Shown here piece after piece: positions 22,784 through 26,047 of a DNA stretch of 64,000 nucleotides; within the stretch, counting starts at the first letter, position 1; each line of letters opens with the position of its first letter. The stretch spans positions 4,096,001 to 4,160,000 of the forward strand of contig OY820905.2 in assembly GCA_963555755.3 (NCBI GenBank), written 5' to 3'. A model generated the notes under the pieces. The model was given only the letters and a program-made list of their open reading frames with translations, was not told the DNA's origin and searched no databases. The translations under genes were made by a program, and so were the position numbers. Source of the DNA: Nitrospirales bacterium. Its GTDB lineage: Bacteria; Nitrospirota; Nitrospiria; Nitrospirales; UBA8639.

Positions 22784-23183
22784 ATGCAAATAACCGAACG
22801 AGTCGTTGGTCTGGATAATATTCTTTCGCTGAGTGGGAAAGTTGTGTATGAGGCGAGAAAAGATTTTCAACAGGCCTTCTAGGAAGCCAAAGAGAAAATT
22901 CCCCCGAAAACTCGTGCTCAATATGGAAGGGTTGACCTATCTTGATAGTTCTGGGCTGGGGATGCGTGTCGTAGGTTGTGAGCAAGCCAAGCTACTCAAT
23001 CTTGCCTTCTGTTTAGTGAATCCTGTTGGTGCCCTGAGGCAAATTTTTGATTTGGCCCAGCTTCCGGCAATGATGCCTGTGCATGACACTAAAGGGCACC
23101 TCTACAAACCAGGCATTTTTTGTGAGGGCAAGGAAGCCGCGCGCGGAAAACCGGAGTGTATGGGCGAATACATGAGGATGTGA
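22784..23183 (+). pseudogene. STAS-domain anti-sigma-factor antagonist, disrupted
   Basis: MQITER..LSLSGK..DFQQAF* then LVLNMEGLTYLDSSGLGM in another frame. Confidence 0.7.
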
Positions 23184-23902
23184 GCACGCGGCTGACGCCG
23201 CCATCACGGAAAAGGACGGTTTTTAGAGGTGCCCTAAAGAACAAGCCCTCCGCCTGACCCCCTCCATACGGATCATACAGAATATATGGTTCTCTATGAA
23301 TTTTGTAGGAACCCCGTGCCAATAATAGAGGACCCATCTGTGGCCACTAGACCCCCAGGGAGCTCATGGGCGAGCCATCCGGGTTTCTAGATTTTTCTGG
23401 GGCTTCATCAATCCGTATCGGTCGGTTGGCCGGATTCTCCTCTGCAGGTGATGGAAGAACATCCCTTGGGAAGCGGTACTCGGGAGGCTCCCCCTTTGGA
23501 AAAGGGGGGGAGGGGGGATTGTACGATAACCATACCCTCACACACCAAGCTTGCACTGTCTGAGCGACTAGGGCCGCCCCCGAGTCAGGATGGGGGCCGT
23601 TGGTGCCGGCACCCGCTTTGCCCCTTCGGTTGGATCGGCAGCCACGCCGGGGGAACCCGCTTTGTGGGAGGCAAGAAATGTGCAGAACTTGCCTGTTCCG
23701 GATCAGAAAATCCCCCCAAGCCCCCCTTTTCCCAAGGGGGGACCAGGCGGGGAATTATTCAACCCATTCACCCTCCCGGTGACGCGAAGAGCCTTTTGTC
23801 TTTGGCTACCGGCAATGGCCGGGACTCGAAAAACGAGGATTGAGCTTCACGCCACTCATTGGGCAATTGATCCGAATGCGACTCCTAGAACCATATATTC
23901 TG

Positions 23903-25931
23903 GTGCGACCAGGCAAGGCTGGTCTGATGGGAAAGGAGGCTGCGAGGACTCTTTGAAAATCAGTTCATGGTCCAGTGGGTGCAAAACCCACCCAACCAAA
24001 GCGGAGCCCGGCAGGGTGGTAGCAAGCCTTGCGCCAGCGCGGGTAACCGTTATGGCGATGCGTAGGCATGCGAGCGTATGGGCCGCAGGAAATGCAGCCT
24101 CGAAAAGTGGAATATCCTGGATGTCTAGGGGCTCGGAATCTCTGAAGACCACGGCGTCGTCGCCGGTATGGGGCAAGGCGGCGGGGCATCCGGCGGGGTG
24201 AACGACTGGGGCACGTACGAAGAGGATGATCCAGGAACCTGGGAGGCCCTCATTTCTCCCTGGGAGATACCCGGTGCCACGGGGACCCGGTGACCACTCT
24301 CCGACGAACACGCGGACGCGGGTGCCTGCGTGACTCGGTGTAGAACAAGCACTCGCCTCAGGGTAGGCCGACGGCAAGGGGAACCGGAGCTGCGGCTGAG
24401 GGGGATGAGGGAGTCGGAGGGCGGCATAGGAGCGACAACGTCGGGGAACGGGGTGGTGCCTGGACCGGACCGAGCAAAGGCTGCCCGTGTTGATAGGAAC
24501 GTCAGGAGGGAACCATGACCAAGGCATTGATGTGGGATTCCATGTCACCGGAACTTTTGACGGTAGCGGAACGAGCGAAACGGGAACCCGAAGGACGATG
24601 TCACGCCTTGGCCCATCTCATCGATGTGCCAGCTCTGACACGCGCCTACCGACGACTCCGCAGGAATGCCGCGGTAGGTGTGGATGGTATCACCAAGGAG
24701 CAGTATGGGCAGGAGCTGGAGCGGAATCTCCAGGATCTGCATCACCGGCTGAAGACGAAGCGGTATCGTCATCAACCGATTCTCCGGGGATATGTGCCAA
24801 AGGGGCAGGGTCGGCACAGGCCGATTGGGATATCGGCGACAGAGGACAAAGTGGTCCAAGGGGCGCTGCGGGACGTATGGGAGGCCATATACGAGACGGA
24901 GGTTACCGATAGCTCGTATGGGTTTCGACCGAAACGCGGTGCGCATGACGCGCTTCGGACTTTGAACCGAGCGGGGCATGGTGGGGAAATGAACTGGATC
25001 GTGGAGGCGGACATCGTCTCGTACTTTGACAGCTTGGATCGCACCAAGCTGAAGGAGATGATTCAGAAACGGGTCGCCGATGGGGCGCTCATGCGGCTCA
25101 TTGGCAAATGCTTGAATGTGGGCGTGCTGGACGGCGAGGTGTATTCCGAGCCGGACGTGGGCACGGCCCAAGGCTCGGTCCTCTCCCCGCTCCTCGGGAA
25201 CATCTACCTCCATTACGTGCTCGATCTCTGGGTAGAATCCGAAGTGAAGCCACACCTCCGGGGGAAGTGCATCTTCGTCCGGTATTGTGATGACTTCATC
25301 TTTGGTTTCGAATGCCAGGACGATGCGGAGTGGGTGATGCTGCTGCTGGGAAAGCGGATGGGAACATATGGACTGACCCTGCATCCGGACAAGACTCGCC
25401 TGTTGTACTTTGGGCGACCGTTCAAGGGGCAGCAGGCAGGCAAGGGGCCGGCCAGTTTCGATTTCCTCGGGTTCACGCTGTAGTGGAAGCGGTCCCGATA
25501 TGGACGCTGGATCTTGGCATTCAAGACCCGAGGTGCACGCCTCACGCGGGCCATTCGGTCTGTGTACGACCGGTGCCGACGCCATCGGCACCGGTCGGTG
25601 AAGGAGCAGCACATGGCGCTCGTGAGGCACGTGCGCGGCCACATGAACTATTTTGGCGTGAACGGGAATATCCGTAGCCTGCATCTTCTTCTGGTGCAGG
25701 TTCAACGTGCCTGGTTCAAGTGGCTTCGGCGTCGCAGCCAACGGACGCGCCTCACGTGGGAGAGGTATCAGGACCTGTTACGGGACTTTCCTCTTCCCCG
25801 TCCACGGATCGTCGTCCAGATCTGGGGGCGGTAACCCGCGAGCCATATCAGCGGAGGAGCCGGATGGTCGAAATGTCCTTGTCCGGTTCTGGCGAGGGCC
25901 TCGGCTGGGTGACTGGCCGGGGCTACTCTAC
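23903..25931 (+). mobile_element. Group II intron (probably class E-like)
   Basis: 5' GTGCG; domain V GAGCCGGATGGTCGAAATGTCCTTGTCCGGTTC at ~25857; 3' end CTACTCTAC; removal restores the TIR exactly. Confidence 0.92.
24515..25834 (+). pseudogene. ltrA: Group II intron reverse transcriptase/maturase with in-frame TAG at 25481-25483
   Basis: SYGFRPKR, QGSVLSPLLGNIYLH, YCDD, FDFLGF; same frame continues to GHMNYFGV (domain X). Confidence 0.88.
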
Positions 25932-26047
25932 TATGATCCCTCCATACTCGCCTCGACGACCTGACCGACAATCTCTTTAGGTCATTGGTTGCGGCTCATT
26001 TCTTTCCAATGCTACCATGACTTTCCTGACATCAAAGGAGAGTCCTT

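What the first reader, a model, noticed from the sequence alone, without database searches (positions are those of the whole stretch)
23262..25947. Group II intron whose homing site is a transposon terminal inverted repeat
Seen: removing 23903-25931 restores AGAACCATATATTCTG|TATGATCC, the exact inverse of 23270-23293, with an 8-bp duplication CTCCATAC outside. A loop in the intron (CGGAAT, 24134-24139) can pair with the 5' exon end ATTCTG with one G-U pair, as expected for EBS1-IBS1. The left TIR is therefore an identical, unoccupied target on the other strand. Inference: the intron exploits a multicopy element end as a renewable target and probably immobilises the host element.
Basis: partly seen in the sequence, partly recalled or inferred. 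Interest (0 to 1): 0.72.

Follow-up and report, generated by a model that had tools for sequence, protein, structure and literature searches.

The report
Intron homing into ISL3-type MITE ends
A group II intron (a mobile, self-splicing type of RNA element) sits at the same base inside the end-repeat of a small transposon family in all three of its copies in this genome and in its closest relatives with visible flanks; it likely uses these many repeat ends as landing sites and would disable each end it hits, a habit already described for one rhizobial intron.

Summary
Confirmed. A 2029-nt subgroup IIB intron (23903-25931) splits the right 24-bp terminal inverted repeat (TIR) of a 641-bp MITE with an 8-bp target duplication. 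The genome holds 73 such ends, related to those of an ISL3 element. All 3 of 3 intron copies sit at the same TIR base, in three different host elements. So do the relatives with visible flanks: three metagenome sites and contigs of two runs. Covariation across 18 EBS1 types confirms the proposed EBS1 and adds EBS2, EBS3 and delta-delta'. The protein groups with class E and lacks an endonuclease. All copies are co-oriented with replication (p about 0.1), which may explain the empty left TIR. Splicing and immobilisation are inferred, not shown. The strategy is published for RmInt2/ISRm17 (class D), and this scan noted it before on other DNA (51 notes, at least 29 genomes). This is a new member, from a different intron lineage and with a different host family.

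The parts
23262..23269 (+). Left 8-bp target-site duplication
   Evidence: identical to 25940-25947
23270..23293 (+). Left TIR of the MITE; an exact, unoccupied intron target on the minus strand (head-on to replication)
23270..23902 (.). Body of the 641-bp MITE (633 bp here plus 25932-25939); no transposase; two intron-free copies in the genome differ at 8 and 9 positions
23490..23739 (.). Pair of REP-like palindromic repeats inside the MITE (arms 23490-23527 and 23702-23739); 85 blast hits in the genome
23887..23902 (+). Inner 16 bp of the right TIR = 5' exon; IBS2 CCAT 23891-23894, IBS1 ATTCTG 23897-23902
23903..25931 (+). Group II intron, subgroup IIB architecture, 2029 nt, three copies in the genome (99.7% identical)
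24096..24096 (+). delta' (A), partner of delta T24133
   Evidence: Watson-Crick in 17 of 18 EBS1 types
24107..24110 (+). EBS2 (GTGG), four pairs with IBS2
24134..24139 (+). EBS1 (CGGAAT)
24201..24201 (+). EBS3 (A), pairs with T25932
   Evidence: pairs in 10 of 12 types with a known 3' exon
24515..25834 (+). Intron-encoded RT/maturase, 439 codons, YCDD motif, no endonuclease domain; in-frame TAG at 25481-25483 leaves 322 aa
25851..25928 (+). Domains V and VI; bulged branch-point A at 25925
25932..25939 (+). Outer 8 bp of the right TIR = 3' exon
25940..25947 (+). Right 8-bp target-site duplication

Best explanation
This is a class E-related group IIB intron that sits between bases 8 and 9 from the tip of the shared terminal repeat of an ISL3-related MITE family, where its EBS1, EBS2 and EBS3 match the flanks; it likely got there by retrohoming into the lagging-strand template, and it would destroy that transposon end. 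Shown: intron boundaries; three copies at one TIR base in three different hosts; EBS positions by covariation; no endonuclease domain; co-orientation with replication; a shared stop in the protein gene. Inferred: the spliced RNA-protein particle pairs with 11 bases of the TIR, the protein reads further TIR bases, the RNA reverse-splices into single-stranded DNA at the fork and is copied from a nascent-strand primer, as established for RmInt1 and RmInt2. An element with two matching ends offers one target on each strand, and the co-oriented one is taken. Splicing acts on RNA only, so it cannot restore the DNA end. The three copies most likely spread while an intact protein was at hand, either their own before the stop was homogenised by gene conversion, or a helper copy since lost. 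They are now probably stranded.
For: 3 of 3 copies share only 17 nt of 5' and 5 nt of 3' flank, essentially the TIR. L011, L012 and L078/L079 (about 90% identical DNA) have the 3' exon TATGATCC, and L078/L079 also a TIR-type 5' exon. A 2067-nt contig of run X8 and two contigs of X12 run through the TIR remnants. These introns form one clade, 100/100. EBS1 pairs 5.44 of 6 against 2.82 shuffled and EBS2 4.67 against 2.69, each 0 of 10000 shuffles; EBS3 52 of 10000. An ISL3 transposase has ends 17-21 of 24 identical to the TIR, with subterminal similarity to the MITEs; a second such element is L134. 379 genome sites satisfy the pairing rule, 32 TIR ends do, and only TIR ends are occupied. 32 of 34 RT loci in the genome are co-oriented with replication, and in both elements with two exact ends and an intron the co-oriented end is filled.
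Against: Only 3 of 20 exact targets are filled, and 3 of 3 co-oriented has p = 0.105. The protein is truncated in all copies; no intact copy, amber tRNA or PylS was found in the genome. No spliced joint appeared in two RNA runs, which are contigs only and cover the intron partly. L078 pairs only 4 of 6 in EBS1. Six of the 10 clade members are proteins without DNA context. Only 1 of the 3 intron-bearing elements keeps a matching duplication. Neither full-length ISL3 element has a duplication, so the helper transposase is assigned by end similarity only. The class E call rests on one class E and one class D reference; classes F and G were not included.
Confidence: 0.82

Rival explanations
1. One chance insertion into a TIR, later copied at DNA level by recombination or gene conversion between MITE ends or by composite transposition.
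For: Two of three host elements lack a matching duplication, and the right flank of the copy at C1:3543877 is duplicated elsewhere. Variable sites among copies are incongruent (3 sites against 2). All copies share a stop that should block retrohoming.
Against: Shared flanks are only 17 and 5 nt. Relatives about 10% diverged occupy the same base with other flanks. All three EBS match the site.
Confidence: 0.06
2. The intron is still active with a split or read-through protein: RT domains (322 aa) plus a thumb/X peptide restarted at the in-frame TTG at 25514, or leaky amber read-through.
For: The stop is fixed in 3 of 3 copies and in contigs of four runs. The downstream frame stays open for 116 codons and still matches TIGR04416.
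Against: The six closest long relatives (P0002-P0007) all have Tyr there and are 439 aa. No CUA-anticodon tRNA among 46 and no PylS over the cut-off. Few targets are filled.
Confidence: 0.1
3. The intron targets the motif in autonomous ISL3 elements or elsewhere, and the MITE ends are bystander sites rather than its main reservoir.
For: EBS1 pairs perfectly with the ATTCCG variant, which none of the occupied sites has. The target of L078 equals the right end of the ISL3 element in L134 from position -14 to +8.
Against: All sites seen with an inner flank are non-coding elements; 73 ends against one full-length ISL3 with this TIR in the genome.
Confidence: 0.12

Closest known systems
[quoted passage not shown]
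   Same: IIB ribozyme, endonuclease-less protein, target inside a terminal inverted repeat, two opposite-strand targets per element, lagging-template bias, only four EBS2/IBS2 pairs.
   Different: RmInt2 is class D; this protein groups with the class E intron S.me.I4 (100/99) and the intact relative L011 is 27% identical to RmInt1. The host here is a set of non-coding MITEs with different cores that share ISL3-type ends, and the commonest (308 bp) has only one matching end. The site is conserved across a clade, not one strain. The protein gene is broken and mobility is untested.
RmInt1 in ISRm2011-2, and the general 'hiding in mobile elements' pattern (PMC5894124 passages; PMC7306698 one passage)
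   Same: A multicopy mobile element serves as the homing reservoir; the intron is proposed to curb its host.
   Different: RmInt1 interrupts an IS transcript, which splicing can in principle repair (own knowledge). An insertion in a TIR breaks a DNA cis-site that splicing cannot repair (inference).
Bacterial class E introns (S.me.I4 on pRmeGR4b, named class E in PMC5894124)
   Same: Nearest named relative: 44.5% identity to L011, same Rfam model RF02005, sister group in the tree.
   Different: Distant sister lineage; no TIR target described for class E in the searches run.

Membership tests
Group II intron | 5' GUGYG and 3' AY boundaries with precise insertion | tested here: met
Group II intron | Domain I core, domain V, domain VI with bulged A | tested here: met
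   RF02005 119.7 bits; fold z -3.2. RF00029 did not reach its cut-off here.
Group II intron | Self-splicing activity | tested here: inconclusive
   No spliced joint in contigs of RNA runs X9 and X16, with partial cover
Subgroup IIB | EBS1, EBS2, EBS3 and delta-delta' | tested here: met
   covariation
Mobile (autonomous) group II intron | Intact RT/maturase ORF | tested here: not met
   TAG at codon 323 in 3 of 3 copies; TIGR04416 265.8 bits, below the cut-off of 300
Bacterial class E IEP | Groups with class E, not class D, in an RT tree | tested here: met
   100/99 with S.me.I4; only one class E and one class D reference, no F or G; the tree tool flagged long branches meeting
Bacterial class E IEP | No endonuclease domain | tested here: met
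   Intact relative L011 is 439 aa with RVT_1 only
RmInt2-type TIR-homing introns | All copies at one position inside terminal inverted repeats | tested here: met
   3 of 3 copies; 4 of 4 clade rows with flanks
RmInt2-type TIR-homing introns | Bias for the lagging-strand template | tested here: inconclusive
   3 of 3 co-oriented, p = 0.105; 32 of 34 RT loci genome-wide
RmInt2-type TIR-homing introns | Retrohoming shown experimentally | not testable with these tools
   needs a mobility assay
RmInt2 itself (class D) | Class D protein close to RmInt1 | tested here: not met
   L011 27% to RmInt1; separate clade
MITE | Short, multicopy, TIRs, target duplication, no transposase | tested here: met
   641 bp, 3 copies, 8-bp duplications; longest stop-free stretch 150 codons; one MITE ORF had no NCBIfam hit
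ISL3-derived | Ends shared with an ISL3 transposase element | tested here: met
   C1:3186453-3187876 (PF01610; ends) and L134
ISL3-derived | 8-bp, AT-rich target duplication (family trait recalled) | tested here: met
   64% AT over the 19 distinct perfect duplications, against 49% in the genome
ISL3-derived | Mobilised by that transposase | not testable with these tools
   The candidate helper is in two overlapping ORFs and lacks a duplication
IS1595-derived (considered) | Transposase bounded by this TIR | tested here: not met
   The IS1595 gene at C1:3591643-3592587 is a separate 1016-bp IS (38 copies) with its own ends, nested in a MITE

The most novel reading that the evidence does not exclude
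A class E-related intron radiation has specialised more than once on the cis-acting ends of transposons: this clade on ISL3-type TIRs, and a neighbouring clade on a conserved end motif next to IS91-type transposases (probably oriIS). EBS loops are retuned to each end, so the introns act as irreversible, DNA-level brakes on their hosts. The three copies here kept spreading or persisting with a broken protein, through help in trans or a split maturase.
Probability: 0.3. Interest if true: 0.62.

Novelty: new member of a known kind. Interest (0 to 1): 0.4.

Why it matters
It shows that homing into transposon ends, so far described for one class D intron in one rhizobial strain, also occurs in a separate intron lineage and is kept across a clade. 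The target is tied to a whole family of MITEs that share only their ends. The TIR occurs in 31 of 101 genomes of the host family while the intron is rare, which gives a natural system to test whether such introns curb transposons at DNA level. The mapped EBS set makes that test straightforward. The mechanism itself is not new.

Tried and rejected
IS1595 as the parent family: rejected, the transposase is a nested IS. The stop as an assembly error: rejected, contigs of X1, X2, X9 and X16 that cover 25483 show no other letter there. Amber recoding: no CUA tRNA among 46, no PylS over the cut-off. A strand-specific T>G signature of retrohoming: suggested by 11 of 11 transversions among copies, but not seen on longer branches or in other introns. 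Some of these differences may be assembly errors, since run contigs show only the ancestral base at 23946 and 25034. A minimum-energy fold of domain I was uninformative (z -0.36). No promoter-like site was found on the plus strand upstream. Full-length intron not found in 60 relatives (two partial hits; L092 had no clear boundary), in 400 phylum genomes, in 100 family genomes (best 45% protein identity) or in viral contigs. Splicing from RNA runs: contigs only, partial cover, no joint. Depth suggested about three intron copies in X1 and two in X2, but depth is no copy number. Checking the oriIS label of the sister clade against named IS91 elements failed: one element had unrelated ends and three showed no such motif, at least two of them cut short by a neighbouring gene; the label remains recalled. 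PMC12584367 (abstract only) concerns a groEL intron and was set aside. PMC7923331, PMC8643678 and PMC13181058 (passages) gave background only.

Full report
Observation. Of 30 boundary pairs tried, only removal of 23903-25931 restores the inverse of 23270-23293, and CTCCATAC flanks both ends. The insert starts GTGCG, ends AC, matches Rfam group-II-D1D4-6 at 119.7 bits, folds into domains V and VI with a bulged A seven bases from the end and encodes an RT.

The host. With the intron removed the element is 641 bp. Two intron-free copies lie elsewhere in the genome with their own 8-bp duplications and differ at 8 and 9 positions, three of them in the TIRs. It has no transposase, so it is a MITE. 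The intron-free genome has 73 TIR-like ends (at most 6 mismatches, at most 1 in the outer 8 bases), mostly in a 308-bp family (17 clustered copies) plus 328-bp and 641-bp types with different cores. I first took the parent for IS1595, but that transposase is a separate nested IS. An ISL3 element at C1:3186453-3187876 has ends 17 and 21 of 24 identical to the TIR and shares subterminal sequence with the MITEs. A homologue in G449 (L134, 84% identical) has the same ends. Neither has a target duplication and the G000 gene is in two overlapping ORFs, so ISL3 parentage rests on end similarity. The TIR (up to 3 mismatches) occurs in 31 of 101 genomes of the family, with no reversed-pattern control hits.

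Other copies. The genome has three copies, 99.7% identical. All are at AGAACCATATATTCTG|TATGA, in a 641-bp, a 308-bp and a 148-bp composite element. They share only 17 nt of 5' and 5 nt of 3' flank. Only the window element keeps a matching duplication; the other two look rearranged. Among 86 related loci, the four closest (L011, L012, L078, L079; about 90% DNA identity) all have the 3' exon TATGATCC. L078 and L079 are one site, in a MITE with TIR-type ends; L011 and L012 lack the 5' flank. A 2067-nt contig of run X8 aligns over 23885-25939 with 33 differences and an unrelated sequence further upstream, and two contigs of X12 cover the two junctions separately. In the tree these proteins form a 100/100 clade of 10 rows; 4 of 4 rows with DNA context are in the TIR and 6 have none.

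Recognition. Domain I of the window intron and 45 loci was aligned. I dropped tandem-flanked loci (L076, L077), the genome duplicates (L002, L003) and loci with under 16 nt of flank, leaving 34 distinct pairs and 18 EBS1 types. EBS1 (24134-24139) pairs 5.44 of 6 with the exon against 2.82 +/- 0.30 shuffled. The EBS2 segment gives a run of 4.67 against 2.69 +/- 0.26 (0 of 10000 shuffles each; a one-base shift was allowed in both). EBS3 (24201) pairs in 10 of 12 (52 of 10000), and delta-delta' is Watson-Crick in 17 of 18. The positions were picked after viewing the alignment, one row was shifted by hand and relatives are not independent, so these are not strict p-values. In the window EBS2 is GTGG (24107-24110), four pairs. 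L078 pairs only 4 of 6 in EBS1. Of the 73 ends, 32 satisfy all three pairings and 20 are exact; 3 are filled. 379 genome sites satisfy the pairing rule but only TIR ends are filled, which suggests the protein reads more of the TIR (inference). The 308-bp family has one matching and one non-matching end.

Strand. GC skew puts the origin near 2.71 Mb, dnaA lies at 2.92 Mb and the terminus near 0.57 Mb. All three copies lie right of both origin estimates on the plus strand, co-oriented with the fork. Ten of the 20 exact targets are co-oriented, so p = 0.105. Genome-wide, 32 of 34 RT loci are co-oriented. In both intron-bearing elements with two exact ends, the co-oriented end is filled. This fits lagging-template homing by endonuclease-less introns (PMC4615759, passages; moderate bias for class E in PMC8919778, section 10) and offers a reason for the empty left TIR.

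The protein. The frame is 439 codons with YCDD and no endonuclease. All three copies carry TAG at codon 323, where close relatives have TAT. Contigs of four runs from three studies show no other base there; X1 or X2 may be the source sample. The closest intact protein is 95% identical (P0002). There is no intact copy in the genome (next RT 42%, frameshifted), no amber tRNA and no PylS. Polarised by outgroups, three derived sites join the window copy with one copy and two join it with the other. This is what gene conversion would give, but assembly errors could too. I therefore favour past homing followed by loss of function. The tree groups the clade with the disrupted intron of pRmeGR4b, which PMC5894124 (passages) names class E S.me.I4, at 100/99 and apart from RmInt1. 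No class F or G references were included and long branches were flagged.

Effect on the host. The split end keeps the outer 8 bases, but only 1 of the next 16 matches the TIR. DDE transposases need the inner repeat (own knowledge) and splicing cannot repair DNA, so this end is predicted dead. No intron-bearing MITE was seen at two sites, but with three copies that is weak evidence.

Comparison. RmInt2 does the same in the inverted repeats of ISRm17, and the authors state the two-target, lagging-strand argument explicitly (PMC4615759). That lead came from earlier notes of this scan, which list 51 findings with these words in at least 29 genomes; none matched this sequence. Nine library searches (listings only, unless named above) showed no paper on an intron in ISL3-type or MITE ends. 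The library lacks most subscription papers and I read no supplements, where such cases may be tabulated.

Wider family. More distant relatives target other mobile DNA: Y2 (IS91), IS66 and integrase-core genes. A separate 97/93 clade has a conserved 5' exon motif in 17 loci that I recall as the IS91/ISCR oriIS. A Y2 transposase ends 275 nt from it in L049, but in L053 and L056 the transposase points the other way, and my check against named elements failed.

Verdict. Real and well supported; it works like RmInt2 but is not class D. New member of a known kind, interest 0.40.

Noticed in passing
window 23093-23235: A second, unrelated 143-bp MITE with 18-bp inverted ends sits just upstream, at the 3' end of a STAS-domain ORF; 122 full-length hits in the genome.
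   Followed up: partly
G000:C1:1007631-1009850, 1022143-1029102, 3054536-3060616, 4584715-4587056: A different group II intron family sits inside the 308-bp MITE at two internal sites (after MITE positions 123-126 and 207), with further introns nested in two cases. The MITE family therefore hosts at least two intron lineages.
   Followed up: partly
L005, L014, L015, L022, L023, L025, L026, L048, L053-L056, L070, L075, L081, L083, L088: A neighbouring intron clade inserts at a conserved motif resembling the IS91/ISCR oriIS (recalled), with EBS2 CCTAT/CTAT; Y2 transposases lie nearby in L049, L053 and L056. The label is not verified.
   Followed up: partly
G000:C1:3545914-3547623 and 1009851-1011850: The 3' half of a gene that looks like csrA (judged by eye from its translation) and about 1.7 kb of neighbouring DNA are duplicated next to the second intron copy; the MITE there has unmatched flanks, pointing to recombination between MITE copies.
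   Followed up: partly
G000:C1:2522230 and 2535617: 308-bp MITEs are inserted in two ISL3 transposase genes whose own ends also begin GGATCA.
   Followed up: no
three intron copies, window 23946-25623: All 11 differences among the copies are transversions, against about half on longer branches; some may be assembly errors.
   Followed up: partly
G000 whole genome: About 690 kb (15%) is repeated DNA, with 34 group II RT loci and 70 IS1595-type matches. ARAGORN lists 46 tRNAs but no tRNA-Asn.
   Followed up: no
L018, L058, L076, L077: Head-to-tail or closely repeated intron copies in relatives.
   Followed up: no
L065:435-658: A relative is inserted near the end of a 228-bp REP-like inverted-repeat element.
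   Followed up: no
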